DNA of 64,000 bases from the NCBI GenBank assembly GCA_012295275.1, contig CM022677.1, forward strand, positions 14,570,001 through 14,634,000. The letters are read 5' to 3'. The stretch is from Chrysomallon squamiferum (lineage: Eukaryota > Animalia > Mollusca). The notes under the pieces were generated by a model, which saw only the letters and a program-made list of their open reading frames with translations, had not been told where the DNA came from and made no database searches. Every line of letters starts with the position of its first letter. Position 1 is the stretch's first letter. Made by a program: the position numbers and the translations under genes. Of the stretch, positions 634 to 51,469 are shown piece after piece.

Positions 634-1377
634 CCGTGGTTCTCAACCTTTTTTTTGTCAACGGCACACCTTAGAACACATGAAAAAATAGCGGCACACC
701 TGGCTAAATATATATGAAAAATATTTGAATTTTGTCAAGTCATAGACCCAGCCTAGTCATAGACACCTAGAATGACTCAAACTAAATAAAGAAAAACACA
801 GCTATACTTCACTGCGGTGTTTCGAATTTCATCAGTCAAATAGCTGGCTTCTTTAGTGAGAAATTTGTGCCTGGCTTTTATTCATAATTTCCTCAATGTT
901 TGGTCGAATATGAGACAGACAAACCCTCATTTCTGCTTTCGTTGTAGTAATCTCTCGTGCTTCATGTTTTCGATGTTGTCTAATTCACATATATAAGGAG
1001 TTGAAAATTGTAATAAAATTGCTAAAACTCTTTTACATAATATGGGATACATCTCTTGTACTGAAATCCAAAATGAATCAATGGGCAGAGTCGAATGTTT
1101 TAATTTTAAAGTCATTAGAAAGGGCGGCCAATTCTTCTTCTTCCTGTAACTCAAGTTCAATGTTGGAAGAATGATTTATGAAAGGATCTCTAATCCAATC
1201 ATACTTTTCTGTCTTTAATGACGGAAATGTATTGTTGATGCTTTCGTCCAGGGCTGTCAGATGAGTAAACACAATAGGGATCACTTCTCTAATGCAGGTA
1301 AAACGCAATAAAGGGAACTTATAAAGGTTGACAGTGATTGCTATTTTTTTTCCCAAATCACTGGTTGAGAATCACTG
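634..1377 (-). mobile_element. Non-autonomous hAT (Buster/Charlie-type) DNA transposon deletion derivative
   Basis: Imperfect 15-bp TIRs: ccgtggttctcaacc (634-648) and ggttgagaatcactg (1363-1377). The left flank ATCTAGCA resembles the Charlie nTCTAGnn target. The minus strand carries a frameshifted hAT C-terminal region (WIRDPF...EEELAALSND / FWISVQEMYPILCKRVLAILLQFSTPYICE) like ZBED8/FAM200-type transposases. Confidence 0.85.
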
Positions 1378-2139
1378 AATTAATGTTATACTAATCATGT
1401 TATAAGGCAGAATATTGATAAACATTACTTACACCTGAAAGTATTTGTGTGAACTGTTTAACAGATATAAATAGATTGACAAGATAAATATATGTAATTA
1501 TTTAAAATCATTTTACAAAAATCATTTTTAAAATCTCTAATAATGCTTGCAGGAGGCACTGGATTGGAAAATGGATGAAAAACAAATAAAAAATAAATAA
1601 AGAAATGCATAGCTTAATTTATGTTTGTTGTGTATGTGTGTTTTTGTATGCAAATGTGTGCACCAACACACACCAATGTAAACACACATCATGGATTCAT
1701 ATATATTTTATTTATACTCGTCAATATTCAGTCGATTTTCAGAAGCTTACCTCTATGCGTGCATGTGTATGTATGTGTATGCACGGATAGATAGATAGAT
1801 CAGATAGATCCTGAAGTCACTATCAGTAATTGCAATATATGATCACTAGATAAGTTTCTATATTTTCAGTCGGTAAACAAAAACAATATTACTTTTTTAA
1901 ATATTTAATTACCAGTTTAATCTTAAAAGCCCCTAGTGCTTGTACAAACTTCAGCCTGTTTACAGTAGCTCCATCCATATGCAGGACAGACAGTCGGTGT
2001 GTGGGTGACTAGGGCAGGGGGGGTGGATAGGATAAAAATGGGTGAGCTTAGGGTCCCGGACAGAAAAGGTGAGTTGAACACAAGCCCTCCCGCCCTACCC
2101 CGACATTTTTCGAGATTCCATTTATCACATATGGATAAT

Positions 2140-2470
2140 TAGCGTACGTAAGCTTAGTGAGTACATCTCACGTAAGGCTAAAGTTGCGAGCACATATCAC
2201 TAAAGAGAGATAACTCTAATCGATATAATTTTTACTTTATTCAGTGAGTACATGTCACGTAAGGGAGATAACTGTAATCGATACAATTTTCACTTTGCTT
2301 AGTGAGTACATCTCACATAAGGGACATAACTCTAGTCTATGTTTGTGAACACATATCACTAAAGGGAGATAAGTCTAATCGATATAATTTTTAATTTGTT
2401 TACTGAGTACATCTCATGTAAGGGACCTAACTCTAATCCAGGTTTGTGAGCACATATCACTCAACTGTAA
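2140..2470 (+). repeat. Short tandem array of alternating ~58- and ~36-bp units on an AAGGGA(G/C)ATAACTCT core
   Basis: Repeated 'gtgagtacatctcacgtaagggagataactctaatcgatataattt' and 'gtgagcacatatcactaaagggagataa'. An inverted copy lies at about 46080-46390. Confidence 0.8.
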
Positions 2471-2548
2471 TCAATATAGCCTTTACTTCGCCGAGTAAAC
2501 TCCTCCCACCTCTGGTGACACATCATGGGGTATGACCCATGTTATATA

Positions 2549-2785
2549 CAGGGTGGCCCAGATGTAACCGAACCTGAATTGTTATGAAAAGTTACAGTTA
2601 AATGAAACAAATTTGATTTCATATAGTTACAGCAAATGTTCAAAATGCAAACCATTATTTGTAATACAGTGATGACATCGTTCAATGGTTGATTCTGTTA
2701 CTTTTTTGCACATTTTCGCGAAGCAGACTTGAAATCAGTGATCATCGATTGAGCTTTCGGGTTCGGTTACATCTGGGCCACCCTG
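2549..2785 (-). mobile_element. Tc1/mariner internally deleted element (237 bp), TA TSD
   Basis: Perfect 26-bp TIRs cagggtggcccagatgtaaccgaacc flanked by TA. A remnant of the transposase C-terminus lies on the minus strand (ESTIERCHHC../NNGLHFEHLL*). The empty site with a single TA is at 3367-3383. Confidence 0.9.
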
Positions 2786-3194
2786 TATAAAGAAAGTGGT
2801 GTTTCCACAGTATTTCGTAGATGAATCTGGAATCGGAAAGTACTGCTGATGTCTCCAAAAACGCTGAGATTCAATCCCACGATCTCACGCACACGAACAT
2901 GCTTACAAGAAACATTATAGTTTCAACTTTGTTCTGTACCTTCACAAGCTGTGTGAGGGTGGGGTACTAGGGCAGGGGGGCAGGGGCCATGCGTTTTTAT
3001 TTCTTAAACTATTTTTTTTTATTGTTGTGCTGTTACAATCTTCTATTATGTGAATAATGTTTTTATTAGAATTATTTTTTCATAACTTGGCTGAATAATT
3101 AAATAGCATTTCTTTAGCACTTAACTAAATGAATTAAATGAAACATAAATCTAAATTAGAAACTACATCATTATTCTTTTTTATTTCATTTTTC

Positions 3195-3636
3195 AAGATA
3201 ACTCTAATCGATATAATTTCCACTTTGCTTAGTGAATACATCTCACGTAAGGGACATAACTCTAATCTACGTTTGTGAGCACATATCTCTAAACTGTAAT
3301 CAATATAGCCTTTACTTCGCCGAGTAAACTCCTCCCACCTCTGGTGACACATCACGGGGTATGACCCATGTTATATATAAAGAAAGTGTTGTTTCCACAA
3401 TATTTCGTAGATGAATCTGGAATCGGATTCCATCGGATTCCAAAAGTACTGCTGATGTCTCCAAAAACGCGGAGATTCAATCCCACGATCTCACACATAT
3501 GAACATGCTTACAAGAAACATTAAAGTTCGAACTTGGTTCAGTATCTTCACAAGCTGTGTAGGGGGGTAGGGGCCATGCGTTTTTATTTCTTAAACTATT
3601 TTTTTATTATTATTGTTCTGCTGTTACAATCTTCTA
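3195..3636 (+). repeat. Local direct duplication of 2205-3048 lacking the mariner insert
   Basis: Shares 'cttcgccgagtaaactcctcccacctctggtgacacatca', 'gatgaatctggaatcgg' and 'ggggccatgcgttttttatttcttaaact' with the upstream copy. Confidence 0.85.
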
Positions 3637-3769
3637 TATTGAATAAAAAATGTCTCAATAATATTTACCAGCGAATATATTCACAAATAGAGTTATTTCC
3701 CTTTAATATGAAAACGAATACTTTCTTGGATGACGTTTTCTCCCCTTTCTTATATTATAAAAGGATTTA

Positions 3770-5590
3770 TCACATAACTCTGTATAGGAATCTGTTCGTT
3801 TTAATAATCAAGAGAAAAATGTAACAAAGGGGAGATAAATCTATATAGGAATATATTCGTTTTAACCTGACTAATCAAGGAGAAAAATGTAACAAAGGGG
3901 ACATAACTCTTTATAGGAATATGTTCGTTTTAACCTGAATAATCAAGGAGAAAAATGTACGAAAGGGGGACATAACTCTATCCGAGAGGATATTCGTTTT
4001 CATGTTAAAGGGAGATAACTCTATATAGGAATATGTTCGTTTTAACCTGAATAATCAAGGAAGAAAATCTAACAAAGGGGACATAACTCTATATAGGAAT
4101 ATGTTCGTTTTAACCTGAATAATGAAGAGAAAAATGTAACAAGGGGGAGATAACTCTATCACAGGTTATTCGTGTTCATGTTAAAGGGAGATAACTCTAT
4201 ATAGGAATATGTTCGTTTTAACCTGAATAATCAAGGAAAATCTAACAAAGGGGACATAACTCTATATAGGAATATGTTCGTTTTAACCTGAATAATCAAG
4301 AGAAAAATGTAACGAAGGGGACATAACTCTATATAGGAATATGTTCGTTTTAACCTGAATAATCAAGACTAGGGGATATAGGAATATGTTCGTTTTAACC
4401 TGAATAATCAAGAGAAAAATGTAACGAAGGGGATATAACTCTATATAGGAATATGTTCGTTTTAACCTGAATAATCAAGACAAAATGTAACGTAGGGGAG
4501 ATAACTCTATATAGGAATATGTTCGTTTTAACCTGAATAATCAAGAGAAAAATGTAACAAAGGGGAGATAACTCTATCAGAGAGGTTATTCGTTTTCATG
4601 TTAAAGGGAGATAAATCTATATAGGAATATGTTCGTTTTAACCTGAATAATCAAAGAGAAAAATGTAACAAAGGGGAGATAACTCTATACATGAATATGT
4701 TGGTTTTAACCTGAATAATCAAGGAGAAAAATGTAACAAATGGGAGATACTTCCATCCAATAGGTTATTCGTTTTCATGTTAAAGGGGACATAACTCTAT
4801 ATAGGAATATGTTCGTTTTAACCTGAATAATCAAGACAAAAATGTAACAAAGGGGAGATAACTCTATACATGAATATGTTCATTTTCATGTGAAAGGGAG
4901 ATAAATCTATATAGGAATATGTTCGTTTTAACCTGAGTAATCAAGGAGAAAAATGTAACAAAGGGGAGATACCTCTATTAGAGAGGTTATTTTTTTTTTC
5001 ATGTTAAATGGGAGATAAATCTATATAGAAATATGTTCATTTTAACCTGAATAATCAAGAGAAAAATGTAACAAAGGGGAGATAACTCTATACATGAATA
5101 TGTTGGTTTTAACCTGAATAATCAAGGAGAAAAATGTAACAAATGGGAGATACTTCCATCCAATAGGTTATTCGTTTTCATGTTAAAGGGGACATAACTC
5201 TATATAGGAATATGTTCGTTTTAACCTGAATAATCAAGAGAAAAATGTAACAAAGGGGAGATAACTCTATACATGAATATGTTCATTTTCATGTGAAAGG
5301 GAGATAAATCTATATAGGAATATGTTCGTTTTAACCTGAGTAATCAAGGAGAAAAATGTAACAAAGGGGAGATACCTCTATTAGAGAGGTTATTTTTTTT
5401 TTCATGTTAAATGGGAGATAAATCTATATAGAAATATGTTCATTTTAACCTGAATAATCAAGGAGAAAAAGTAACAAAAAAATGTAACAATTTTCATGTG
5501 GGGACATAAACTCTATCCGAGAGAAAAATGTAACAACGGGGACATAACTCTATCCGAGAGGTTATTCTTTTTCATGTTAAAGGGAGAGAA
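3770..5590 (+). repeat. Satellite, ~68-bp unit with shorter variants and a 403-bp higher-order duplication
   Basis: Unit aaaggggacataactctatataggaatatgttcgttttaacctgaataatcaaggagaaaaatgtaac. The diagnostic variant 'ttccatccaataggtt' recurs at 4751 and 5154. Confidence 0.9.
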
Positions 5591-6531
5591 TATCAATATA
5601 TTCGCTTGTGATTAATGTTCAGGTATATTTTCAACCAATGGAATCCAATAATTTAATTAGTGGACACTGTTTAATCATTTAGTAAGCATTTTAAGTAATG
5701 AATTCTTTTTACATTAAAATTATAGATCAGATGGAAATATTTATAGGATATTCTTTATCTGTTATATTAATATATCAAAGGTAAATAACATCTTTTTTAT
5801 ATTAATAATAATAATTCTATGTTGAAAATATCTAATTTGTTGAAAACTAAAATTTACAAAAAGAAAATTTATATTTTGATATAACTCTGAACTTGAAATA
5901 TGATAAGGATAATGAGAACTTAAAAACAAGAATTGTGTTCTACATTATACTTTTGTCCGATGGTAAAAGGAGAAACAAATAAATATAATAAACAATAAAA
6001 TATTTCTTAATAATAGTTACCAGCGAATATATTCACAAATAGAGTTATTTTCCTTTAATATGAAAACGAATACTTTCTCGGATGGAGTTATCTCCCCTTT
6101 CTTACATTAAAAAAGGGTTTATCAGAATTACTTGATATGAAATCAGTTTGTGGAAATATGTGAATAGAAGATTCATCAAAGTTTGTGAAAATATTTAATG
6201 TAATAAAAAATGTATTATTGATTCATTATGTCACTATTTGTTATTTTTCGTTTAAAATTATTATCAAAATTATCAAACAATTATTAATTTAATATATATT
6301 CTTAAAATTTAATTTCATATCATTTCTTTAGCACTTAACTAAATGAATTAAATGAAACAGAAATCTAAATTACAAAATACATCATTATTTTTATTTCCTT
6401 TTTCAAAATTTGTTTTGTTGTTGTTAATGTTGTTAACCATTATCATCGTTATATTCATTCCTATTATTAATGGACAACAGAGTTATTTCCCTTAGACTAC
6501 TTTGTCTATGAAATTGACTAATTATTATTAT

Positions 6532-20974: not shown

Positions 20975-22130
20975 TATTTTCTTAATAAAAACACAACGTT
21001 ATTTTTATCTGGTTGCGATATTTTATTCCTGAATATTAACTGTACTTCTCAACTAGAAATATTAAGATGAATATGACTTCACATATAATTAATTATTTGC
21101 TATTATTTAACAATGTAACCTCAGCTTTTCAATACATACCTGTCTAGAAAAAGAAAATCAATATTTAACTATCAGGTGCAGCTAAAATCTAATCCAGTTT
21201 TGCTTAGTAACAAAGAACTGCAGTCTGGAAGGCCTCGTTATTTCTCAATTTCTCAATTTCACAACTATCCTTCTTGAATGAGATGATATTCAGTAAGTTA
21301 TACGACAAATTATACTGAAAATTACAGGTATGATTTCACTTGTTAAATTCAGAAATATAGATGGAACTTCCGTGTTATAATGTTTTTATAAATATCTGTA
21401 GCTTTATATGTGTCGTGAAACATATATCGAGAAATAAAGAGAGCGCATTTATAAGCACCAGAACATTTTCACTGAAAAACAAAACAGCAGAACTTTGTGC
21501 ACTAACTTCAGATACCGCTACGAAGTGTCCGTTTTATTAAAAATAACAAGATATTATATTTTACTTTGCTAATTCTAAATCGTATAATAAAAAGGTGTAA
21601 TTGTACTGTTCGTGAACTTAAATATTATATACACTACAGAAAATATTGATAACCACAGTTATCACTGAGAGTTATAAATGATAATTCTACATGCCGTTAT
21701 AAAAAGAAAAATATGAGAATTAATTATATTTACAGTTTGTAGGTTAAGTATGTTGACAAATGTTAATCTCATATTTTATTAATATCGTATGTTTATATAA
21801 GGTTATATTTAAAAATATCAGATTTAATTCTCTTGAATCACGATAGTGTGTACTGATTAGCTGAGAACAAAGAATGTTATTTTATTATGCGAAGTTTATT
21901 TGTTTTCATTACATTCATTAAAAGGTTGTATAGTGTAATATACTTTACATTTCTTATTATACCTGAAGTTCTCTTACTACATTAGATATTTATATCCGCT
22001 CCCCAGTAATTATCAATGAGTCAGTGAAGCAGACAGTTGTCACAGTCCTCTGTCAACAGCTAAATAACCACACCAATAATAACACTTAATATTTTTATTT
22101 TTTATTTTGTTTTTATTTCTCTGTAAAAAC

Positions 22131-22575
22131 GGAAGCTTCCTATATATGTCTGACGCTATTCTCTTAGTTTCATTAGAACTGTTCTGAGTGCGGATATAAA
22201 AATTACTTCCAATTTTTTATTAGGCCTCGTAAAGTTATCAGAGAAATCAGATTTATTCTTAGTGTATTGTTTCTGTCGAGATAAAATCTAAATACTTCTT
22301 TTTAAAAAAATATATAATAATGATAATAATAATAGTAAACTGATTTATGAGAAATCGTGAACTTTTACAAAACCACAGTTAACTATAGAATATCGATGTT
22401 TACACTGATAATGTTATCCATCGATAACTAAATATGTAGGGAGAGATGTAAATTGTGTCGCGGAATGTCATGTTACTGCGTCATAAAACAAAGTATCACA
22501 TTATGACACTGAAAGGTGCACAGTTAATTTTCAGTAATATCAATACAATAATAAATACAGTATTCATCTAGCACT
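22131..22575 (+). repeat. Block E (copy 2), without the hAT insertion
   Basis: Direct paralog of 1-633. It continues 'ttcatctagcacttcacg' where copy 1 enters the hAT TIR. Confidence 0.85.
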
Positions 22576-23696
22576 TCACGCGTTTCTGTATAGTCTTATT
22601 ATTGTTAATAATAAAATAACTTATTATTAAAGACCATAATTTTTCAGTATATAAGGAGGACATTAATTTGGGGGAAAATATAATAATATTAATATCAAAT
22701 GTCGTTTACAATAAAATATTTCCTTTTTCTGAAGCCTTGAATTGTTTTTGATCAGAGGACTGGTAAATTCATATCAAACGTTAAACAGATTTGTCGTAGC
22801 TGTGATGTTAGCTGAAAGCGTTTTTCAGGTTTCTGAATAAAGACCAAACATTAATTCTAAAAGTAAGGGTTCTTTTTAATATTATCACCTAAAAATGTAA
22901 AATGTAGTAGGAAAATGTATATACGCTCTGTGTGTGTGTGTGTGTGTGTGTCCATATCTATATTTCTGTATAAAAATGTAAACTTATCCTATTTAAATTT
23001 ATTTTGTGAATATGAATGTGTAAGTAAAGTGCCTTTTGTAAACTGCGAATGTGAAATGAGGACTCAATATTTTTATTGTAATGTACGCAAACTAACAAAA
23101 ACACGTTCCTTATGTCAGTTCAGGTATTTTGTTTTATGATTTACAGTCAGCGATCAAGTGGGTTAAGAGAATTTACATTATCCTCACTTGAAGAAATCAC
23201 AGTTGTTTTCACTCGAGTGTTTACAATAATCATGTTTAAAAAGGATATATTTTCAAAGATAGGTTTGATTGAACAAATTTCTTGTTTAACCAACACAGCA
23301 ATTTTTGAGATTACGAGTTCAAGATTAATGTGTAATGAAAATTATAAACAACATTCACAAATTTATTTCATTGGAATATTTAGATTACTGTTCAGAAATG
23401 TGTTCAAATTTTTTAGAGATGTTAAATTGCATTAATAACAGAAAAACAAATTTATCAACAAAAATTCAAAAACAATTAAAACAAGGCAAACAAAAATGAA
23501 AACAACATTAATTTATTTTAATAAATATCAACATTAGTAATTATAACATATAAACAACAAGTGTAAGTTAAATAGATATTTCTCTGTACAGAAGACAGCA
23601 GGTACAGATCTGGGGTGTGGTGTGTTAACATATTTGCGTGATGAGAAAATACCCCAAATATTTTCTTGCTCCTCTACCATATAACACCTTCAAATT

Positions 23697-23890
23697 ATTT
23701 CAACCTTACTCTTGTGGTGTAAAAAAAACAAAGTTACACATACTGGCTTTTTGACCAAATGAACTTTAAGACTTATGCTCCTTCGGGCGCAGCCTAAGCA
23801 CCTTCGGGGGTTAAAGTGCATTTGGTCAAAAAGCCAAAAGCCAGTATGTGTAACTTTGTTTTCTTTACACCACAAGAGTAAGTTTGAAAT
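23697..23890. mobile_element. Parvovirus-like Y-shaped terminal hairpin (ITR/telomere) of an endogenous viral element
   Basis: Arm 23697-23769 pairs with 23811-23890 (73 bp, 3 mismatches, one 7-nt aaaagcc bulge). The 41-nt GC-rich centre folds into two ears, tgctcc-TTCG-ggcgca and cacc-TTCG-gggg. It lies about 130 bp upstream of a capsid-like ORF. Confidence 0.8.
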
Positions 23891-23939
23891 ATATTATGAT
23901 TTTCACACATACATTTTTTTTCTTTGACATCATCAGTAT

Positions 23940-23965
23940 GTCACATGACTAATTTTTAATATAAA
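23940..23965 (+). promoter_or_regulatory. Putative viral VP promoter
   Basis: USF-type E-box gtcacatgac (23940-23949) and TATAAA (23960-23965), followed by an ATG with A at -3 at 24019. Confidence 0.5.
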
Positions 23966-24018
23966 TATACAACACTACTAAAATATTTCATTTGCAAATT
24001 AATATTGCATGAGATAAC

Positions 24019-26365
24019 ATGTTCACAGCTATTGGATTGATAGCAACCAAGCTAATTGAATCTGCATTTGACATATCAGTGGAATTTGCAACTGATGCAA
24101 CATTAGAATCTACAGCACCAGCAGTAGCAGAAATCATTGGCGCTGATAATATATTTCTCGACGAAGCAACTGGATTAGCACAAACGGTTGTTGAATATTC
24201 AATAGAATCTATTGCAGATTATACTAAGTCTCAGATCTAAAAAGCAGTTGAAGAATTTCCTTACGCTGTGCAAGGAACTAGTTTATCTGACAAAAATATT
24301 ATAAGCAAAGATAACGAACAACAGAAAGAAGAAGAGGAAGAAGAAGAGAACGTTACTTATATATTAATCGTTTTAATGCACAAAGGAAAACGTATATTGG
24401 ATAAAAAGGAAGTTACTCGTCTTTGGGCAATAGCATAATCTAAAGCATTAAATAATTACAACAGTTAAATGTGTCTAGGGATCAAGCTCAAGAAAACTGG
24501 TTACAGATTCGACGTAGATATCCAAATTTGCAAATACCGAATTCAGATTTGTATTCGGCAATAGATAATCTTTGACAAGAATATAACAATACTGAAGATT
24601 CGAATGAAGATGACCCTTTTGATTTGCCTTTATTCTCAGAAGACCACGAAAGACAAACAAAAGAAACAACGAAAAGACACACAGAAAAACCAATTAATCC
24701 ACCACCAAATAAGAAACGTAAAGAAAATCCACAGTTATCTACAACTGTATCTGAAGATGTCGAAAATACTGCAGCGAAAGGAACATATCTACAACCAGAA
24801 GAAAGTCTGATGAATCCTGATTCGGTCACAGGAAACGAAGTCTGTCAAACTGGTGGTAGTGAAGCTGTGCAAGGAGCACTAATGTTCTCTATCACAGATT
24901 TGGAGGAACAACAACAGCGGCTAATCCTAAGTACATCAAAGTAAAAAGAAAATTTAAACGTAAATTTACTAGTGTTTAAACTTCACTAAATTAAGAAAAG
25001 CAGAAATGAATGTTCTGAATAACGAAGTTCAAATAGGTTGGCCCAGTGCTATTGGAGATCCATCCGTATGTAAATGTACTTTTAATCATGTTGGTCATAA
25101 TAATACCTTATTGGTATAAACAAGCTAGTACTAAACCTGAAGATTGGAATTTACCAGATGAATTTGTAGGTTATAGAATTAAAAAGTTTGGATTCAATAT
25201 TAATAATATGATGATTCATGTTTTAAACAATAATAAGGCTGATCATAATGAAGTTCCTGCTATAGCTCCACCAAATGCTAGAGTGTGGACTTTTACTGAT
25301 ATCAACAAAAAATACAGGTGATTATAGTCATAATAAGTTATTTAGAGATGAAGAATGTATGGATCAAACCGATGAGCGAAGTATCAAGGTACAACCTGAT
25401 AGAAATATATGTTTGCCAAGTGATATAGGAATGCAGGTTTAAAATAATGCTTGTACACTGAAAAATGTACATAACCGACACCTAATTATATTTATGATTT
25501 AAAAAATCATGACGTTACAGAGAAACTGTAATTAGTGCAGGACGTTTGCTTTAGATTATGAATGTAAAAATGCTCCTCTAGTATAATTTCAGTCAAGTTG
25601 CTGGTAACGTAAAAAAGAGTAATTATTAATTTAGTAATGAAAGTGCAAAATATTTTGAAGTGTGGCCAACGGATGAAATAACAGTAACTGAAATCACTCA
25701 ACATCCAATGGGAAAAGCTATGACAGGTTATTTTAATCATCAGAATCAAAATGTTGATTATAAAGCATGTTTTCAGAATTTAGTTAGGTGAACCAGCAAT
25801 GGCAAATGATAGTAATCAAAATAAATTGATTTAAAAAGGTGTGACAGCAAATGATATAAGTGATCAAAATGTCAAAACAGAAATGGACGGAAGTCATCGT
25901 AGAACACATGAATGTAACAGACCACCAATGTTTTTGATAGGTATTTATCCGGATGTTGAAAGAACAACTAATGGTAACACGTTATTCTTTAATTATCACG
26001 CTAATCTTCAAATAACGCATTATAGTGAAGTAGAGTTCATAGTTAGGACTGGTATGTGTCCTAAATACATTCCTATTGGACTTGGTGGTTGCCCTGGTGT
26101 TATGAGAGGAATGTTTATACTGTGGTTGCTGGTAAAAAAGATAATATAAAACATACAGAACAAGAAATTTTTTTATCTAAAAATTCTGAACAATATTTCA
26201 AGAGAATTAAAAAATCTTGGCAGCTACGAATAGACGCTCCAATATGGGATAATTGGAATAGAAGAAAACCTAGACCGGCGGTTGTTTTGGCCTATACATG
26301 GTGTTTATGGTGATAGGACTGTCCCTATCGTTGGAAAAGAAAATGATTGGAAATATCCTTTATAA
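24019..26365 (+). pseudogene. Endogenous parvovirus capsid (VP1/VP2) gene, degraded, about 780 codons
   Basis: Stitched frames give an NLS-like PPNKKRK, a G/T-rich linker (TGGSE../RFGGTTTA) and KRKFKRKFT. FNHxW/IIPYWYKQASTKPEDWNLPDEFVGYRIKKFGFNINN...ARVWTFTD resembles AAV TPWGYF..SPRDW..WGFRPKRLNFKLFNI..VQVFTD and hamaparvovirus NTGWHIIP..TPKQW. RPPMFLIGIYP..YHANLQITHYSEVEF resembles AAV PPPQILIK..YSTGQVSVEIEW. The terminal stop is at 26363-26365. There are many stops and frameshifts. Confidence 0.8.
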
Positions 26366-26601
26366 ATTTCATTAAAATTAATTTTATTAATAACTATATT
26401 GTTATTTAATACAAAATTAATTTATTATATATTACATAAAATAAGGTTTAAACGAAGAGCTTAGTTTTGGACAATATTTAATTCTTCATTATTAATACCT
26501 TTTAAATGGAATACAATTTATTCTATTTTTATTTTTATTTATTATTATTATTATTGACAAAGGAAGATGTTATTTTAGTGATGAGCTTATCTATATTTAG
26601 T

Positions 26602-26703
26602 TGACGTCAGAAAGTCGAAGCTGATTGGTCAATTTGAATATTATTACGTCATTAGCAACTAGACAATTAGCAACAAAAGTCAGCTGCAGTTGTGTTTATA
26701 AAG
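26602..26703 (+). promoter_or_regulatory. Compact promoter-like cluster (CRE, CCAAT, CRE-like, TATA)
   Basis: TGACGTCA 26602-26609, ATTGG 26624-26628, TTACGTCA 26644-26651, two TAGCAAC half-sites and TATAAA 26697-26702, with an ATG at 26723. Confidence 0.45.
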
Positions 26704-26722
26704 CGAACAAAAAGTAGAAAAA

Positions 26723-26908
26723 ATGAAGTGGTTGTCTTGGTGTTGTCCATGTGTCAAGCGTCGAAGCCGCCAAAACGCTAGTACGAGCTTCTCAGAAAGA
26801 ACAAAGAGCTGTGCAATATTCTCACAGATTTATTGTATTAGAACGAAACAAACATTTGATTTGTCTGTCAGTCTGCTTTCCTTAGGTTCTTCTACAATAG
26901 AATACTGA
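26723..26908 (+). CDS. Small hypothetical ORF (61 aa, MKWLSWCCPCVKRRSR...)
   Basis: True ATG in an aaaATG context about 20 bp after a TATA box, and not low-complexity. I recognise no homology. Confidence 0.2.
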   Translation: MKWLSWCCPCVKRRSRQNASTSFSERTKSCAIFSQIYCIRTKQTFDLSVSLLSLGSSTIEY

Positions 26909-29900
26909 CTTTACTCTCTGTAAAATTACTAAGTGTGTTATATTTCTTTTTACTTTTCCTCTGTTGACTACAATTTTATTTCTCGGGAGCATTAATTTCA
27001 TTATTTATTATCTATTTATAAATGCAATATTATTTATTTATTCATTTATTTATTGCTTTATTTCTTTAGTCAATTAGATTTTTTTTTTTTTGTTGTTGTT
27101 GTTTTATCTTAACGTCACATACATTCTGTACCACTTTTCAGTTTAAACTGAATAAAAAGCCATGACTAAACATATTCTTTCATTATTTGTATGTATGTAT
27201 AGATATACATACATACACACTATAAACACATGCCTGCATACATACCCATGTGCATCGAAAAAATACACGCATATACACACAAACACTTAAACAAACACTC
27301 AAACAAACATACATTGGCTCATGGTATATTTGTGATGCATGTTATAGAAAATAATTATTTATTTATTTATTTTTATAGTTTTAAAAATTAGTTATAGTTG
27401 TTTTTTCTTTTTTTTTCCTTTTTTTTCTCATTTACAATATACATACAGTGTTTAACAAAAATATTTCATAGTATGGCTTTAAAAACAAAACCAAAAAAAA
27501 ATTATTAAAAAAGAAAAAAAAGGAAAAGACAAAAAGAAACACATTTCTAATCACTTGTAAATAAAATAAAATTGTTGTGTTTTTCCTATCTTTTATGTTT
27601 GTTTTAATGTATCACAGTTTAGGTGTGGTTAGAACAGGAAATTATGTCAGAGAAAAATAAAAATAATTGATCCAGCTCTGCTCTTTATTATCATAATTAT
27701 CATCTGCAGGCTACTTACTATTATTGTAATTATCATCTACTAACTCTCACTTTTATTATAATTATCTGTTCACACACACTTGATAAATAACTGGTTTCTA
27801 CATTCAGGTTTGTAAAAAAAAAAAATGGCATTTTGCAGATTATATACTTTAAAACATTTTTTTAGAAAAATATAAAAATAATTAAGAAATAATATAAATA
27901 AATACAAATAACGTTAAAAAGTCTAAGTATTTGTCATGCTTTGTATCAATCATATACATGTTCTGTATTTTGTGTAAACACATCAGAACCTTAAGCTACT
28001 AATATTTTAATAACTATCAAGACCATTCGTATTACAAACAAAACCTTACATAATCAGCAACATGTTAGTGACTGCAGTATTGACAACACTATGATACATC
28101 ATGCTACTCAGTGATAAATAATAATGACAATTCTTACATACAATCTCAGAGAAAAGCTAACTCTTCAGTTTCTGTTAAGTCACTGTACACTGGATATAAC
28201 AAATTCATTCACTGATAAAGCACAGAGGATTTGTAATGCTACATAATATACATATACAGCTGTAATCTGTCTCTTAAAATAAAACAGCTGAAAAAAACAT
28301 TTCTTCATTCTTTGGTTTATGGGCCAGTGATAAGTGTCTATCTATGTTTCAATGTGTGTGTGAGTGTGTATGTACTTGTGTAAGTCTGTATACATGCGTA
28401 TTTGAGTGTATGTATTTTTATATGTATTTATGCATGTGTATTTGTGTGTGTTTATATTATGTGCATTTGAGTGTGCATATATTTGTGTAAGTCTGTATCT
28501 GCATGTATCTGTGTGCTTATTATGTGTGCATGACTATGTATGTATTTCTGCATGTTTGCATGTATTTGTATCTGTGTATGTTTGTATTGTATGGTTAAGT
28601 ATCTATGTATGTTTGTATGTCTGTATGTATGTGTGGAAGTGTTTGTATTATGTGTGTAAGAGTATCAATGTATTTGTGTATCTGTGTGTTTGTATTTTGT
28701 GTGTGTTGTATGAATGAATTTGTTTATTTAGTCAAATTATCTAGTGATCATGAATATGTTTCTGAATGTGTGTGTATGTGTATCTTTTAGAATGTTTGTA
28801 TAGATATATGTGTCTGTATTAGTGTATGTATGTATAAGTATGGATTATGTATACTTATATCTAATTATGTGTGTATGAATACATGTGTTTGTAGTACTGT
28901 GTGTAAGTTTGGATGTAATCAATGCCAAATAAATTATTGGTTCTGAAAACATTATCTGAACACCAAAAACAAAAACAAATCTGAAAATAAATAACGTATC
29001 TACTATGTGTGTTTTATGTTGTTTTTTTACCTGCTGAAATTAAATAGCAACAGAAATTGAATAAAATACCTATCTATATTTAATTATTTTAAATTTGTTT
29101 TTGTTTTTTAAATAATTAGTTACTAATTTAAAATCAAACACTCACATTAAAATAGAAAAATAAACATATTCCATAAACATACACAATTAAAAAAAAAACA
29201 TAATTCATCATAAACTAATACACACATATGTGCATACACCTGCACACATAGGCATACCTATAAAAAAATCCATACAAACACAGATACAAACATACACACT
29301 CACACAGAAACACATACACACACAGAAACTCAGACTTGCATATATATAGACACACATACACCATACAAATACAGACACATTCACACACACAAACATACAA
29401 ACTTAATACACTCACACACATATAAATACACATATACACAGATCCATACATTCAATTACATACATATATATATATATATATATAACATAAAAACTAACTC
29501 TTACACATCCTATAAAGATAATTATGTAGAAACAGAATGACACACAGTGCTATAAAGAAATAAGAGGTATATAAAAATATCACTTGTTTGTAGGTAAAAA
29601 GATGATGGAGGTAGAGCAGGTGCCTGTGATAGAAGTAGAAAACACCAGTAACACATCAGTGAAAACACAGTTCAGTCAGAAACTAGCTTAAATAAGAAGA
29701 CAACAGCAGCAAAAAGTGGTGATGAAACAACTACAGCAACAACAGCAGAGGTGAAGAAAACAGAATCAAGCACATTTCTGAAAATAAGAGAGAAGACAAA
29801 AGTAAACTATGACAAATAAACAATCATAATAATAATTATAATAATAATCATAATAATAATTATAATAATAATCATAATAATAATAATTATTATTACTAAC

Positions 29901-44593: not shown

Positions 44594-45492
44594 AAACGAA
44601 TAACCTCTCGGATAGAGTTATGTCCCCTTTGTTGCATTTTCCTCCTTGATTATTCAGGTTAAAACGAACATATTCCTATATAGAGTTATCTCCCTATAAT
44701 CAGGTTAAAACGAACATATTCTTATACAGTTATCTTCCTTTAATATGAAAACGAATAACCTCTCGGATAGAGGTATCTCCCCTTTGGTACATTTTTCTCC
44801 TTGATTATTCAGGTTAAAACGAACATATTCCTATATAGAGTTATGTCCCCTTTGTTACATTTTTCTCCTTGATTATTCAGGTTAAAACGAACATATTCCT
44901 ATATAGAGTTATGTCCCCTTTGTTACATTTTTCTCCTTGATTATTCAGGTTAAAACGAACATATTCCTATATAGAGTTATGTCCCCTTTGTTACATTTTT
45001 CTCCTTGATTATTCAGGTTAAAACGAACATATTCCTATATAGAGTTATGTCCCCTCTGTTACATTTTTCTCCTTGATTATTCAGGTTAAAACGAACATAT
45101 TCCTATATAGAGTTATGTCCCCTTTGTTAGATTTTTCTCCTTGATTATTCAGGTTAAAACGAACATATTCCTATATAGAGTTATGTCCCCTCTGTTACAT
45201 TTTTCTCCTTGATTATTCAGGTTAAAACGAACATATTCCTATATAGAGTTATGTCCCCTTTGTTACATTTTTCTCCTTGATTATTCAGGTTAAAACGAAC
45301 ATATTCCTATATAGAGTTATGTCCCCTTTGTTACATTTTTCTCCTTGATTATTCAGGTTAAAACGAACATATTCCTATATAGAGTTATGTCCCCTCTGTT
45401 ACATTTTTCTCCTTGATTATTCAGGTTAAAACGAACATATTCCTATATAGAGTTATCTCCCTTTGACATGAAAACGAATATCCTCTCGGATA
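44594..45492 (-). repeat. 68-bp satellite, inverted relative to 3770-5590, highly homogeneous
   Basis: About 10 near-identical units gaacatattcctatatagagttatgtcccctttgttacatttttctccttgattattcaggttaaaac (period 68: 44821 to 44889). Confidence 0.95.
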
Positions 45493-45775
45493 AGAAAAAA
45501 TAATTCTAATAAAAACATTATTCACATAATAGAAGATTGTAACAGCAGAACAATAAAAAAAAAAAAAAAAAACAGTTTAAGAAATAAAAACGCATGGCCT
45601 CTGCCCTCCTGCCCCTCCCTCACACAGAACCAAGTTGAAACTATAATGTTTCTTGTAAGCATGTTCATGTGCGTGAGATCGTGGGATTGAATCTCAGCGT
45701 TTTTGGAGACATCAGCAGTACTTTCCGATTCCAGATTCATCTAAGAAATATTGTGGAAACATCACTTTCTTTATA

Positions 45776-45991
45776 CAGGGTGGCCCAGATGTAACCGAAC
45801 CCGAAAGCTCAATCGATGATCACTGAAATGTGCAAAAACGTAACAGAATCAACCATTGAACGATGTCATCACGTATTAAAAATAATGGTTTGCATTTTGA
45901 ACATTTGCTGTAACTACATGAAATCAAATTTGTTTCATTTAACTGTAACTTTTCATAACAATTCAGGTTCGGTTACATCTGGGCCACCCTG
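45776..45991 (+). mobile_element. Tc1/mariner deletion derivative, duplicate of 2549-2785
   Basis: Same TIRs, TA flanks and flanking sequence as the first copy, so it was copied by segmental duplication. Confidence 0.9.
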
Positions 45992-47181
45992 TATATAACA
46001 TGGATCATACCCCGTGATGTGTCACCAGAGGTGGGAGGAGTTTACTCGGCGAAGTAAAGGCTATATTGATTACAGTTTAGTGATATGTGCTCACAAACAT
46101 GGATTAGAATTAGGTCCCTTACATGAGATGTACTCAGTAAACAAATTAAAAATTATATCGATTAGACTTATCTCCCTTTAGTGATATGTGTTCACAAACA
46201 TAGATTAGAGTTATGTCCCTTATGTGAGATGTACTCACTAAGCAAAGTGAAAATTGTATCGATTAAAGTTATCTCCCTTACGTGACATGTACTCACTAAA
46301 TAAAGTAAAAATTATATCGATTAGAGTTATCTCTCTTTAGTGATATGTGCTCGCAACTTTAGCCTTACGTGAGATGTACTCACTACGTACGCTAATTATC
46401 CATATGGGATAAATGGAATCTCGAAAAATGTCGGCGTATGGCGGGAGGGCATGTGTTCAACTCACCTTTTCTGTCCGGGACCCTAAGCTCACCCGTTTTT
46501 ATCCTATCCAACCCCCCACCTCCCTAGTCACCCACACACCGACTGTCTGTCCTGCATATGGATGGAGCTACTGATAAACAGGCTGAAGTTTGTACAAGCT
46601 CTAGGGGCTTTTAAGATTAAACTGGTAATTAAATATTTAAAAAAGTAATATTGTTTTTGTTTACCGACTGAAAATATAGAAACTTATCTAGTGATCATAT
46701 ATTGCAATTACTGATAGTGACTTCAGGATCTATCTGATCTATCTATCTATCCGTGAATACACATACATACACATGCACGCATGCACTTACACACTGTCTG
46801 ATAGTGGTAAGCTTCTGAAAATCAACTGAATATTGACGAGTATAAATACAATATATATGAATCCATGATGTGTGTTTACATTGGTGTGTGTTGGTGCACA
46901 CATTTGCATACAAAAACACACATACACAACAAACACATAAATTAAGCTATGCATTTCTTTCTTTACTTTTTATTTGTTTTTCATCCATTTTCCAATCCAG
47001 TGCCTTCTACAAGCATTATTAGAGATTTTAAAAATGATTTTTGTAATATGATTTTAAATAATTACATATATTTATCTTGTCAATCAATTTATATTTGTTA
47101 AACAGTTTACACAAATACTTTGACGTGTAAATAATGTTTATCAATATTCTGCCTTATAACATGATTAGTATAACATTAATT

Positions 47182-47774
47182 CAGTGATTCTCAACCAGTG
47201 TGCCGCGGCGCACAGGTCTGCCACGAGATCTTCCTATGTGAGCCGCACAATTTTGTACGGCACACTAAGAAAATGCGAAAAACCACTTGATCCCAAAATA
47301 AAACAAACAGTAGAATGCAAGGTAAAAACGAAAATATTCTCACTTCAACAGACAAGTTAGTTGCCCTCAAAAAGAAAATAGTGATTTGGGGAAAAAAGAG
47401 CAGTCACTGTCAACCTTTATATGTTCCCTCTATTGCGTTCTACCTGCGTTAGAGAAGTGATCCCTATTGTGTTTACTCATCTGACAGCCCTAGACGAAAG
47501 CATCAACAATAAATTTCCGTCATTAAAGACAGAAAAGTACTATTGGATTAGAGATCCTTTCATAAATCATTCTTCCAACATTGAACTTGAGTTACAGGAA
47601 GAAGAAGAATTGGCCGACCTTTCTAATGACCTTAAAATTAAAACATTCGACTCTGCCCATTGATTCGTTTTGGATTTCAATACAAGAGGTGTATCCCATA
47701 TTATGTAAAAGAGTTTTAGCAATTTTATTACAATTTTCAACTCCTTATATATGTGAATTAGGCAACATCAAAAA
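47182..47774 (+). mobile_element. hAT (Buster/Charlie) remnant, 3'-truncated
   Basis: TIR cagtgattctcaacc at 47182. It encodes MQGKNENILTSTDKLVALKKKIVIW, WIRDPF and FWISIQEVYPILCKRVLAILLQFSTPYICELG. It retains 183 bp that are deleted in the 634-1377 copy between AGTG microhomologies. Confidence 0.9.
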
Positions 47775-47893: not shown

Positions 47894-48134
47894 GTAACAA
47901 GCAATAATTATACTTCTCTGCCTACAAAAGTGAAAAATGACTCAAATAATATTAAGGATTTCTCTTAAAAAACAACAAAAAAAAAACAACATAAACAACA
48001 AAAATATTCAGTTGTTAATGATTTAGTGGAACTTTATGGATAATGAATTGCATTAGGTATACTGATAACCACAACAGTAAAGAATTAAACAGCACACTTC
48101 TAAAGTTATAAAGCATGTTTTATATTCCATTTAT

Positions 48135-49560
48135 ATATCAGTAGTATGGTTGAAATAACAGTGACAGATTAGTAGTAATATCAGTAGTATGGTTGAAATA
48201 ACAGTGACAGATTAGTCGTAATATCAGCTGAAATATTAGTAATATTAATGACAGATTAGTAGTAATATCAGTAGTATGGTTGAAATATTAGTATAATTAA
48301 TGACAGATTAGTAGTAATACCAGTAGTATGGTTGAAATAACTGACATAGTAGTAGTAATATCAGTGATATATCTGAAGTAGCAGTGACATATTAATAGTA
48401 ATATCAGTAATAGCTCTGAAGTAGCAGTCACAGATTAGTGGTAATATTAGAAGTATGGCTGATGTAACAGTGACAGATTAGTAATAATAGCATAGTATTG
48501 CTGAAGTAACTGATAGATTAGTAATAATAGCAGTGGTATTGCTGAAGTAAAAGTGATTAGTAGTAATATCAGTAGTATCGCTGAATAACAATGGTAGATT
48601 AGAAACAATAACAGTAGTATCGCTGAAGTAAAGTGATATATTACTAGTAATACAGTAGTATCGCTGAAGTAACAGTGACAGATTACTAGTAATACAGTAG
48701 TATCGCTGAAGTAACAGTGACAGATTACTAGTAATAGCAGTAATATTGCTGAAGTAACAGAGGCAGATTAGCAGTAATATCGATAGTATCACTGAACTAA
48801 CATTGACATATCAGTAGTATCACTAAAGTAAGTGGTGATAACAGTAGTATCGCTGAAGTAACACTTGTAGATTAGTAGTAATATCAGTAGTATCACTGAT
48901 GTAATACAGGCAGATTAGTAGTAATAACAATAGTATTCACGCAGTAACTATGACAGATTAGTAGTAATATCAAAAGTATCGATGAAGTAACTGACAGATT
49001 AATAGTAATAGAAGAAGTATTGCTGAAGTAACAGTGACACATTAGTAGTACCAGAAGTAACAGTGAGAGATTAGTAGTAGTGGCAATAGTATCGATAAAG
49101 AAACGGCGGCAGATTAGTAGAAATAGCAGTAACTTAGTGGTAATATCAGTAATAATAATAGTAATTTCAATACTGGATATGCACTGTAGGAAAGTAAGAA
49201 TCGTAAAATGCGAAAAAGAATAATAAACACCAAGCCTTGAAGGACAACACAGGTACGACAGCAGCGTCTCCAACGTTAACACTAATAATACAGATGTATT
49301 AATAATATATTTTAATACAGGATGCGCAAAAATAAGAAATAAGAATAATAGGTGATAAAAAAACAAAGAAGAACTATGAGAAGCACTCTAATAACTACGT
49401 TAGGAACTATGCCGGTACGACGGCAACGACGGCGACATTAATAGAAATTACAGTAATACAATTTAATACTCATAAAGTATGAGTAATGACTAATAAAAAG
49501 CGCAAAACAATAATGAGAATTACAGCAACAAAGCTAGGAACAAGTACAGCAACTACGGTT
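48135..49560 (-). mobile_element. Repeat element with an internal 42-43-bp tandem array, related to 15520-16210
   Basis: About 24 diverged units such as gtagtatcgctgaagtaacagtgacagattactagtaataca (48135-49170), with a shared unique flank at 49370-49460. Confidence 0.65.
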
Positions 49561-51469
49561 GTATTAACAGAAATAGTAATAATACATCTTAGTATTGGAT
49601 TTGAACGCAAGAAAAGTTGTTTGTAATTTTCATTACAGTTTATTTATCTTGAACCCAGTAGTCTCAGAAAATCAGTGCTGTGTTGGTTAAACAAGTGCAC
49701 ACTTCAGCATCAAACCTATCTCTGAAAATATATTCCTTTTCATAGAACATGTTTATTGTAAACACTCGAGTGAGGATAATGTAAATTCTCTTAACCCACT
49801 TGATCGCTGACTGTAAATCATAAAACAAAAGACCTGAATTGATATAAGGAACATATGTTTATTAGTTTGCGTACATTTCAATACAAATATTTCCTTTTTC
49901 ACATTCGCAGTTTTCAAAAGGCATTTTACGTACACATTCGTATTCACAAAATAAATTTAAATAAGATACGTTTACATTTTTATACAGACAGACAGATATG
50001 GACACACAGACACACGCACACACGCACATAATCATTTGCAGAAAATAATGAAACATATTTCATGTTCTGAAGAGTTTACAAAATAGAAGGTAAGTACGTG
50101 GCTACATAGTAGCAAATAAAACGTTTAAGACAAATATATTCAGATATAATTAAATATATTTTGAAACAGTTAAGTATATTTTGAAACAATTAAGTATATG
50201 TTGATATGATTAAATATATGTTGATATGATTAAATATATTTTAATATGTTTAAATAATTTTGATATGATTAAATATAAAAATGTCCATCTGAATCAAATA
50301 ACTTCTTTAAAATACCCAACTATTTATTTTGGGACATTTTCCTCCTGTGTGATATTGTGTTTTATGATCGCTGTAACATGACATTCCGCGACACAAGTTA
50401 CATCTCTCTCTAGATGAAATTACATAATTAATCTAAAATTCAGCTAGTATTTATCAAATTATGTAATTAAGAATATATCATTAATTTTTCTTAAACACAT
50501 CTAAAAGTAAGTTAATAATTGAGAATGAGATTCCATATTTATTCAATAATATAACCTATAATCTCTAATTAATGTTAAAATGCCATATAAATAATACAGA
50601 CATGATAAAACAAGGGTCTTATTTTTGGGTAACATTATCAGTGCAAATAGCGATATTCTTTATTAACTGTGGTTTTGATAAAAGTTCACGATTTCTCATG
50701 TAATTACATTATAAATAAATCATTATTATCATTATTATATACTTTTTTAAAAAGAAGTATTTAGTTTTTATCTCGACAGAAACAATACACTAAAATAAAT
50801 CTGATTTATCTGATAATTTCACGCGGCCTAATAAAAAATTCGAAGTAATTTTTATATCCGCTCTCAGAACAGTTCTAATGAAAGTAAGAGAATAGCGTCA
50901 AAAATATACAGGAAGCTTCCGTTTTTACAGAGAAATAAAGACAAAGTAAAAAATAAAAATATTAAGGTGTTGTTAGTTAGCTGCTGACAAAGAGAGGACT
51001 GTGACAACTACGGTGTCTGCTTCATTGTTATATAGATTATTATTGGTGGAGCGGTTATACTAATATCTAATGTAATAAGATAACTTCAGGTATAATACAA
51101 AATATAAAGTATATTACACTATACAACTTGCGCTGATGTACACCTTTTAATGAATGTAATTAATTAAATTAAGTTCTGTTCAAGTTTGTCAAATTTGCTT
51201 AATAAAATTTATTATCAAATTTAAACTGACCTTTTATTTTACGAGAAATAATTTGATTAATCTGAAATTCATCTACATTTTGAAGTTTATTAAACTATTT
51301 TTATTAGATATATATTTCTTTCACAAACATTATTTAGACTGTCAATAGCGGTATCCTTAATTAAATATATCACCTTATTTTTACTTGTTTATGATTTATA
51401 GTTTTACAAAATAAACTTGATAACTTTGTGTACATAATGGAATATTATTTGAGTTTTCTTCTATTTGTT

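What the first reader, a model, noticed from the sequence alone, without database searches (positions are those of the whole stretch)
23697..23890. Near-intact Y-shaped hairpin with two C(TTCG)G ears
Seen: a 73-bp stem with 3 mismatches and a 7-nt tandem-duplication bulge, enclosing two unequal GC-rich ears that both have TTCG loops closed by C-G. The stem looks less damaged than the adjacent VP gene, which is full of stops. Known: such structures prime parvoviral rolling-hairpin replication, and C(UUCG)G is an extra-stable RNA tetraloop. Inference: the arms may be maintained by intra-strand conversion, or the structure may act as a dsRNA/small-RNA source or an NS1-responsive origin.
Basis: partly seen in the sequence, partly recalled or inferred. 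Interest (0 to 1): 0.7.

Follow-up and report, generated by a model that had tools for sequence, protein, structure and literature searches.

The report
Fossil parvovirus telomere in animal genome
A real Y-shaped DNA palindrome sits at the edge of a broken parvovirus-like capsid gene in what is likely an animal genome; it is most likely the dead virus's terminal replication hairpin, decaying no more slowly than the gene beside it, from a capsid lineage for which we found no named genus.

Summary
The structure is real: a 73-pair stem with 3 mismatches, a 7-nt bulge and a 41-nt centre with two C(TTCG)G ears (z -17 as DNA). The ears form as DNA but not as RNA (probability 0.006 and 0.001). The palindrome's left end meets a high-copy host repeat within 4 nt. 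A TATA box and a broken capsid gene follow (6 stops, 12 frameshifts, 55% identical to an intact 690-aa relative). That relative's predicted fold matches parvovirus capsids, and its family of 51 proteins has no capsid Pfam match. So the hairpin is most likely the opened terminal hairpin of an endogenous parvo-like virus. Integrated densoviruses keeping Y-hairpins or ITRs are published (Aedes Aag2 cells, tapeworms). What is fresh is the unclassified capsid lineage and a possible capsid-first gene order.

The parts
23697..23890 (.). Opened terminal palindrome (Y-shaped hairpin as single-stranded DNA) of an endogenous parvo-like element
   Evidence: left end coincides with the host-repeat junction
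23697..23769 (.). Left arm of the stem (73 nt); holds one copy of the 7-nt unit where the right arm holds two. Its outer 4 nt (23697-23700) also match the host repeat.
   Evidence: loose ends behind 23700 in 4 of 4 runs
23770..23810 (.). 41-nt G+C-rich centre with two unequal ears: long ear 23772-23798 (loop TTCG 23782-23785), short ear 23799-23810 (loop TTCG 23803-23806); predicted flip/flop segment
   Evidence: flip/flop itself not shown
23811..23890 (.). Right (inboard) arm, 80 nt, with tandem AAAAGCC x2 at 23829-23842; candidate replication-protein binding repeat (inference)
   Evidence: deepest part of the hairpin in 4 of 4 runs
23960..23966 (+). TATA-box-like motif 70 nt inboard of the hairpin and 59 nt before the ATG at 24019
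   Evidence: pattern match only
24019..24375 (+). Acidic 119-codon frame with one stop, in frame with the capsid start; possible VP1 extension or small separate ORF; no PLA2 or other Pfam match
   Evidence: no significant match to P0042 (E 0.31)
24376..26365 (+). Broken capsid (VP) gene of an unclassified parvo-like lineage: 6 stops, 12 frameshifts (13 at the lowest penalty), 358 of 649 aligned residues identical to intact P0002
   Evidence: fold of P0002 matches parvovirus capsids
26567..27000 (+). Multi-copy block whose depth tracks the capsid family; CRE-, CCAAT- and TATA-like motifs and a 60-aa ORF from 26723; possibly a second unit of the same element (inference)
   Evidence: no Pfam or PDB hit
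22930..23700 (.). High-copy host repeat(s) abutting the element; other copies run on differently after 23700
   Evidence: second window copy at 49613-50023; depth above 10,000 in 3 of 4 runs

Best explanation
The palindrome is most likely the terminal hairpin (telomere) of a parvovirus-like single-stranded DNA virus that integrated into an animal germline, and it is now likely a passive relic decaying with the broken capsid gene beside it. In the free virus this end would fold into a Y whose stem primes DNA synthesis, and whose eared centre would be copied across in both orientations during rolling-hairpin replication (established for Parvoviridae; inferred for this lineage). That copying would keep the arms matched while the virus replicated. 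On integration the end was likely opened into a double-stranded palindrome and joined to a host repeat at about 23700. Since then single-arm changes have accumulated: 3 mismatches, ear damage and a 7-nt asymmetry that is probably a loss from the left arm. Shown: structure, junction, capsid identity by predicted fold, break counts, copy variation. Inferred: origin function, direction of the bulge, neutrality.
For: (1) The palindrome ends at the element edge: depth falls from above 10,000 to a few hundred at about 23696 in 3 of 4 runs, and other copies of the host repeat leave the window at 23700 in 4 of 4 runs. (2) Hairpin, TATA 70 nt inboard, then capsid frames: the layout of densovirus VP ends (PMC3820778 whole text; PMC3738899 passage). 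(3) The broken gene is colinear with intact 690-aa P0002 over its whole length; P0002's model (pLDDT 60.8, pTM 0.54) has parvoviral capsids in all listed top rows of PDB (best E 2e-10) and BFVD (best E 9e-16); one relative is 'Parvoviridae sp.' QKE54994.1 and one has a parvoviral PLA2 domain (P0048, E 4.5e-11); relatives lie on contigs of up to 7.5 kb. (4) Size and shape fit densovirus Y-hairpins: 113, 130, 223 and 242 nt with 23-34 nt flip/flop centres (PMC3820778, PMC3738899, PMC7737747, PMC11642819). (5) Ears form as DNA, not RNA. (6) Hairpin abundance tracks the capsid family: ears/conserved VP bin 1.3 and 0.4, right arm 2.4 and 1.4 in X1 and X5. (7) Paralog contigs link the right arm to the same downstream flank (records 6, 14, 23). 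(8) Decay test: 3 stem mismatches against 4.4-7.8 expected, P 0.15-0.45; indels 6.9 per kb in the stem and 6.2-6.7 per kb in VP; near copies differ by 2.1% in VP (68 of 3290) and 1.4-2.8% in the hairpin, P 0.54-0.85.
Against: No NS1/SF3 helicase remnant in the window (0 of 84 ORFs with a viral Pfam hit; no Walker A between 15 and 35 kb), so the replication gene is unseen. No free virus of this lineage with its termini could be fetched (empty; one search gave one 1011-nt fragment without ends). The stem has fewer mismatches than the point estimate, and a model that ignores base composition gives P 0.05-0.10, so mild preservation is not excluded; the test rests on 6 stops. Contig depth is not a copy number. 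Structural matches are remote (TM-score 0.29-0.35 by query length, 12-15% identity).
Confidence: 0.74

Rival explanations
1. The viral hairpin was kept by the host or by intra-strand conversion after integration, for example as a fold-back transcript that feeds small-RNA defence against related viruses.
For: 3 mismatches seen against 4.4-11.5 expected from VP stops, P as low as 0.048 in the simplest model. A 73-pair stem folds as RNA. An RNA run has contigs over the hairpin and capsid, and the element is higher relative to the host repeat there (0.59 against 2.9-6.4 in the three other runs). Densovirus telomeres yield siRNAs in aphids (PMC11642819 passages); Aag2 densovirus EVEs are transcribed with abundant siRNA-sized reads (PMC13711794 passages).
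Against: Not significant with base composition modelled (P 0.15-0.45; with ears 0.22-0.59), and the stem ends were picked where pairing stops, which biases towards few mismatches. The bulge persists in haplotypes from two studies that differ at 4 of 141 sites (records 21 and 30). Variable places: stem 10 of 153, centre 3 of 41, flank 8 of 170, P 0.50. One near copy pairs worse in the short ear than the window does. UUCG ears do not form in RNA. RNA contigs cannot show strand, level or locus.
Confidence: 0.12
2. The hairpin is the end of a parvovirus-derived element that multiplied inside the host genome by hairpin-primed copying, so some copies were active as mobile elements rather than one-off insertions.
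For: Several copy classes exist in this species: near copies at 0-4% and paralogs at about 82% identity. One stem position shows two different Watson-Crick pairs among copies, as arm-to-arm copying would give. Another assembly holds 13 capsid proteins or pieces on 4 contigs, some intact, 5 of them on one 297-kb contig. Tandem densovirus EVE arrays with ITRs are known (PMC6880638, PMC13711794).
Against: Near copies span most frameshift positions without gaps (table 8), so they are alleles or duplicates of an already dead locus. No NS1 found. Repeated insertion of related viruses or segmental duplication explains the same counts. No convincing target-site duplication (only 6-8 nt A+T-rich matches).
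Confidence: 0.09
3. The palindrome is a host fold-back element or MITE that happens to lie beside the capsid fossil.
For: The hairpin core is multi-copy, and in run X4 the right arm is deep (about 10,700 against 380-1,670 in the flank). Some contigs leave the arm at 23860 into unrelated sequence.
Against: The ears are 7-20 times shallower than the adjacent true host repeat and about equal to the capsid family; only one copy in 64 kb; paralogs join the arm to the viral flank; no target-site duplication around 23697-23890; a 41-nt two-eared centre right before a TATA box and capsid gene is the parvoviral layout.
Confidence: 0.05

Closest known systems
Y-shaped terminal hairpins of ambisense densoviruses (AdMADV 113 nt, JcDNV 130 nt, MpDV 242-243 nt, SSaDV 223 nt)
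   Same: Long stem, two short arms in a central flip/flop-sized segment, inboard TATA box ahead of the VP gene (PMC3820778 whole text; PMC3738899, PMC11642819, PMC7737747 passages).
   Different: A+T-rich stem (31% G+C), 41-nt centre, 7-nt asymmetry; capsid has no Denso_VP4 or other capsid Pfam match; second terminus and NS gene unseen, so ambisense and homotelomeric status are untested.
Densovirus EVEs that keep their termini: Aedes aegypti Aag2 EMLs and Echinococcus multilocularis EmuDNV
   Same: Integrated, multi-copy, broken genes, terminal palindrome kept. Aag2: 22 loci with a 5' ITR predicted to fold as a Y (PMC13711794 passages). EmuDNV: stems of 95-165 nt with a 37-nt loop, 89-100% matched (PMC6880638 passages).
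   Different: Here the hairpin adjoins VP, not NS; the capsid lineage is different; no NS1 seen; transcription not shown.
Unclassified >7 kb Parvoviridae MT138329 and MT138334 (bird cloacal viromes)
   Different: The link is circumstantial: QKE54994.1 was not found in that paper's supplements or in the library, and the genomes could not be fetched.
Bidnaviridae and bidnaparvoviruses
   Same: Parvovirus-derived jelly-roll capsid, genomes of about 6 kb or more (PMC9896142 section 14; PMC8502044 passages).
   Different: They prime with a PolB protein rather than by self-priming (PMC9896142); a fold-back Y end argues against this group; no PolB hit in the window.

Membership tests
Parvoviridae (endogenous element) | Single jelly-roll capsid protein of parvoviral type | tested here: met
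   Broken gene 55% identical to P0002; P0002 model matches parvoviral capsids at E 2e-10 (PDB) and 9e-16 (BFVD); Atlas leads at 0.89 to IHHNV_capsid/VP1_2/Denso_VP4 clusters. By fold only; no capsid Pfam hit in 34 of 34 family proteins.
Parvoviridae (endogenous element) | Terminal palindrome that folds into a hairpin at the genome end | tested here: met
   palindrome ends within 4 nt of the host-repeat junction.
Parvoviridae (endogenous element) | NS1/Rep with HUH endonuclease and SF3 helicase | tested here: inconclusive
   None in this window; the element looks truncated, no whole genome is held, and relatives' contigs could not be fetched.
Parvoviridae (endogenous element) | Linear single-stranded genome of about 4-6 kb replicated by rolling hairpin | not testable with these tools
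   Only contig lengths of relatives (2.6-7.5 kb) are known.
Ambisense Densovirinae | VP and NS on opposite strands, converging, with ITRs at both ends | tested here: inconclusive
   Hairpin-TATA-VP fits a VP end, and minus-strand AATAAA motifs follow the VP stop, but no NS sequence follows on the minus strand and a plus-strand promoter-like block does.
Ambisense Densovirinae | PLA2 domain in the VP1 unique region | tested here: not met
   No PLA2 hit in 24019-24465 or P0002; present in 1 of 34 family proteins scanned (P0048).
Ambisense Densovirinae | Flip and flop orientations of the hairpin centre | tested here: inconclusive
   No listed contig spans centre and unique flank together; no strand-change joint listed.
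Host MITE / fold-back transposon | High copy number independent of viral genes | tested here: not met
   Depth tracks the capsid family and is 7-20 times below the adjacent host repeat; depth is only a rough proxy.
Host MITE / fold-back transposon | Target-site duplication flanking the inverted repeats | tested here: not met
   The letters on either side of 23697-23890 are not a direct repeat; a very short duplication such as TA cannot be excluded in A+T-rich DNA.
C(UUCG)G tetraloop RNA element | C(UUCG)G-capped stems form in the RNA | tested here: not met
   Closing-pair probability 0.006 and 0.001 in the plus-strand RNA fold; no Rfam match over the hairpin.

The most novel reading that the evidence does not exclude
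This is the first terminal structure seen for an unnamed lineage of large (6-7.5 kb) parvo-like viruses that puts the capsid gene first behind a Y-shaped hairpin with a second same-strand unit after it, and that has colonised animal germlines as a multi-copy, hairpin-primed element family, with intact capsid frames still present in another genome.
Probability: 0.2. Interest if true: 0.68.

Novelty: new member of a known kind. Interest (0 to 1): 0.36.

Why it matters
Termini are usually missing from metagenomic parvovirus contigs and from many EVEs (absent in marsupial AAV EVEs, PMC4932596 passages), so a kept telomere gives the likely replication mode of a capsid lineage known almost only from unnamed contigs, and ties it to an animal host genome. 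It favours hairpin priming over the protein priming of bidnaviruses. If the capsid-first gene order and in-genome spread were confirmed, it would be an unusual parvovirus design.

Tried and rejected
Whole-genome copy survey: no genome is held. Pfam on window pieces: no hit reaching a curated cut-off in 11 of 11 pieces or 84 of 84 ORFs. First protein search with the C-terminal piece: none of 34 candidates; Atlas with that piece: no usable hit; PDB by sequence: nothing significant. Profile search with A1 returned only P0001. IMG/VR scans for the capsid: six empty; the 18-nt arm motif hit one 25.8-kb contig with no hairpin there, taken as chance. JGI metagenomes: one 1011-nt fragment, no termini. 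Rfam: only microsatellite matches to mir-297 below threshold. The sigma-70 scan is irrelevant to a eukaryotic locus. Upstream ORF against P0042: not significant. A transglutaminase-like hit that could tie P0025 to the >7 kb genomes: none. The family tree is a quick tree with long branches; P0002's place is unresolved. Runs X10 and X11 (organism B) hold next to none of the words; no conclusion drawn. RNA-run cover is contig-only and does not show transcription of this locus. Literature searches with no result: QKE54994; parvovirus + hairpin + TTCG + ears.

Full report
Observation. The sequence at 23697-23890 is as described. Pairing the window's own letters gives an outer stem of 48 pairs with 2 mismatches and an inner stem of 25 pairs with 1 mismatch, offset by 7 unpaired letters in the right arm that are one unit of a tandem AAAAGCC pair at 23829-23842. 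The 41-nt centre (23770-23810, 63% G+C against 31% in the arms) holds two C(TTCG)G motifs; that hexamer occurs at only one other place in the window, and the double pattern in 0 of 100 shuffles. The whole folds at -72 kcal/mol as DNA (z -17.2) and -107.6 as RNA (z -15.0). As DNA the minimum-energy fold is the Y, with ear-closing probabilities 0.70 and 0.45. As RNA the ears are replaced by another pairing (0.006 and 0.001), so the UUCG-tetraloop reading fails. No Rfam family covers it.

Setting. The window is A+T-rich, full of microsatellites and has two 200-N gaps; I infer a eukaryotic, probably invertebrate, assembly. No whole genome is held. Nine runs of one coded organism in three studies hold part of 23000-26900. 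Laying contigs shows that the DNA left of the hairpin is a high-copy repeat: depth above 10,000 in 3 of 4 runs, falling to a few hundred at about 23696, and other copies of that repeat continue with different letters after 23700 in 4 of 4 runs. Part of the left flank has a second copy in the window at 49613-50023. So the palindrome's outer end is the element's edge, to within 4 nt. Inboard come a TATA-like box at 23960, an ATG at 24019 and an acidic 119-codon frame in phase with a second ATG at 24376.

The gene. Pfam found nothing above cut-off in the pieces. A search with 25037-25318 found P0001 at 78% identity, from a cluster of 13 ENA proteins on 4 contigs of 8 to 452 kb, including intact 690-aa P0002 and P0009. 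The window's 24376-26365 is colinear with P0002 from end to end: 358 of 649 aligned residues identical, with 6 stops and 12 frameshifts (13 at the lowest penalty). A full HMMER scan gave 51 relatives at E up to 0.001. Of 20 looked up, 17 are from Logan on contigs of 2.6-7.5 kb, one is ENA, one JGI, and one is named 'hypothetical protein, Parvoviridae sp.' QKE54994.1; 31 were not looked up. None of 34 scanned has a capsid Pfam domain; P0048 has a parvoviral PLA2 domain. An AlphaFold model of P0002 (mean pLDDT 60.8, pTM 0.54, confident in the strand-rich core) returns parvoviral capsids in all listed top rows of PDB (chapparvovirus E 2e-10, Zophobas morio black wasting virus, bocaviruses, AAV) and BFVD (best E 9e-16), at 12-15% identity. 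The quick tree does not place P0002 firmly. No NS1 remnant was found in the window.

Is the hairpin viral or a host element? Contig depth is only a rough proxy. With that caveat, the ears are 1.3 and 0.4 times, and the right arm 2.4 and 1.4 times, the most conserved capsid bin in runs X1 and X5, while the neighbouring host repeat is 7, 9 and 20 times deeper than the ears in X1, X4 and X5. Three paralog contigs carry the right arm into the same downstream flank (records 6, 14, 23). Against this, X4 has a very deep right arm and some contigs leave the arm at 23860 into other sequence; these could be other ends of the element or free-standing derivatives. The right arm is far deeper than the left in 4 of 4 runs, and paralog contigs stop matching the left arm at 23744, where the 7-nt unit is single. 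I infer that the two-unit form is general in the family and that this copy lost a unit from the left arm, rather than gaining one on the right; the letters of those loose ends were not shown. One stem position shows two different Watson-Crick pairs among copies, as expected if arms were copied from each other while the virus replicated. Short direct repeats near the fold are where AAV and MVM replication proteins bind (recalled, from no call), so the tandem unit is a candidate binding site only.

Is the stem better kept than the gene? Six stops imply 6-8% substitutions per site under a flat model, or 9-11.5 expected stem mismatches against 3 seen (P 0.10 and 0.048). With the window's base frequencies the expectation is 6.6-7.8 (P 0.15-0.21); if 4 stops are counted, dropping the two beside an uncertain frameshift, it is 4.4-5.2 (P 0.36-0.45); adding the ears gives P 0.22-0.59. 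Indel rates are equal: 6.9 per kb in the stem, 6.2-6.7 in the gene. Stem limits were chosen where pairing ends, which favours few mismatches. Direct comparison of copies agrees. Twelve near-identical pieces over 24191-26472 differ at 68 of 3290 sites (2.1%); these are 12 of the 24 pieces listed for X1, X2 and X5, leaving out six paralog pieces at about 80%, two left-repeat pieces, two downstream pieces, one piece over 23836-24195 and one over 25103-25296, and all RNA-run pieces; 2,710 further pieces were not shown. Hairpin pieces differ at 0 of 141, 4 of 141 and 4 of 97 sites (P 0.54-0.85). Variable places are 10 of 153 in the stem, 3 of 41 in the centre and 8 of 170 in the flank (P 0.50). The bulge is present in two haplotypes from different studies that differ at four sites, and one of them pairs worse in the short ear. 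Near copies cross most frameshift positions without gaps, so they are alleles or duplicates of an already dead locus. The test has low power and mild preservation is not excluded, but nothing calls for conversion or selection.

Mechanism. Most likely (0.74) this is the opened telomere of an integrated parvo-like virus. In the virus the 3' end of such a hairpin primes synthesis and the palindrome is copied back and forth (PMC3187698, passages). After integration next to a host repeat it has decayed along with the capsid gene. Rivals: host use or conversion (0.12), in-genome spread of the family (0.09), host fold-back element (0.05).

Comparison with what is known. Y-shaped hairpins with flip/flop centres and an inboard VP TATA box are described for AdMADV (PMC3820778, whole text), JcDNV (PMC3738899, passage) and MpDV (PMC11642819, passages); SSaDV has 223-nt hairpins (PMC7737747, passages) and BtaDV I-shaped ones (PMC12297876, abstract and section 2.1.2). 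EVEs that keep such ends are published: Aag2 cells carry 22 loci with a 5' ITR predicted to fold as a Y (PMC13711794, passages), and Echinococcus densovirus loci have stems of 95-165 nt around a 37-nt loop (PMC6880638, passages); marsupial AAV EVEs lack them (PMC4932596, passages). So the feature is a new member of a known kind. It works like a densovirus telomere; membership of Parvoviridae is met for capsid fold and terminus and open for NS1; membership of a named densovirus genus is not shown (no PLA2 here, gene order unknown).

What may be new. After the capsid stop, 26567-27000 is multi-copy, with depth tracking the capsid bins in 4 of 4 runs (0.4-1.0 of the conserved bin), and holds CRE-, CCAAT- and TATA-like motifs and a 60-aa ORF on the same strand. 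Two bird-virome Parvoviridae genomes of 7,244 and 7,497 nt are described with the structural ORF upstream of the non-structural one and an extra ORF (PMC9001828, passages and supplementary file 2 part 4), sizes that match this family's longest contigs. The tie to QKE54994.1 is not shown, and minus-strand polyadenylation motifs after the stop fit an ordinary ambisense layout too. I found no paper naming this capsid lineage or its termini in the ten searches made, which cover open-access text only. Bidnaviruses were considered (PMC9896142 section 14; PMC8502044 passages) and fit less well because they are protein-primed.

Verdict. Observation confirmed; interpretation partly supported; interest 0.36; new member of a known kind. 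Most novel reading not excluded: first telomere of an unnamed, large, capsid-first parvo-like lineage that spreads in germlines (probability 0.2, interest 0.68).

Noticed in passing
window 26567-27000: Multi-copy block after the capsid stop with TGACGTCA (26602), inverted CCAAT (26624), TATAAA (about 26697), a 60-aa cysteine/basic ORF from 26723 and a strong splice-acceptor-like tract ending near 26886; depth tracks the capsid family in four runs.
   Followed up: partly
P0002 cluster (ENA contigs of 8, 61, 297 and 452 kb): Another assembly holds 13 capsid proteins or pieces of this family at 85-99% identity to each other, including intact 690-aa frames; five lie on one 297-kb contig.
   Followed up: partly
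P0016-P0052: A family of about 50 parvo-like capsids, mostly 650-820 aa, with no capsid Pfam match and a shared N-terminal helical domain (W-G-x-A-K motif); P0048 has PLA2 in front of it.
   Followed up: partly
window 25084-25310 and 25954-26127: Paralogs at about 82% identity in all four runs, on contigs up to 2.8 kb; in the RNA run the element is higher relative to the host repeat than in the other runs, a weak hint that some family member is transcribed.
   Followed up: no
window 967-5600 and 44612-47774: Two inverted copies (88-99%) of a several-kb element with 68/111-nt internal tandem units and fragments that look like a hAT-type transposase (recalled resemblance; no Pfam hit).
   Followed up: no
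window 22003-22417 / 50626-51046 and 22930-23355 / 49613-50023: Host repeats present twice in the window in inverted orientation at 82-85% identity.
   Followed up: partly
window 56594-56815 (+): A frame with a leucine-rich-repeat-like stretch, possibly a host exon (no Pfam hit at E 0.01).
   Followed up: no
window 48085-49130: Degenerate 43-nt tandem array.
   Followed up: no
run X5 record 31: One contig repeats the ear region (goes back 37 nt from 23808 to 23772), suggesting a rearranged hairpin copy elsewhere in the genome.
   Followed up: no
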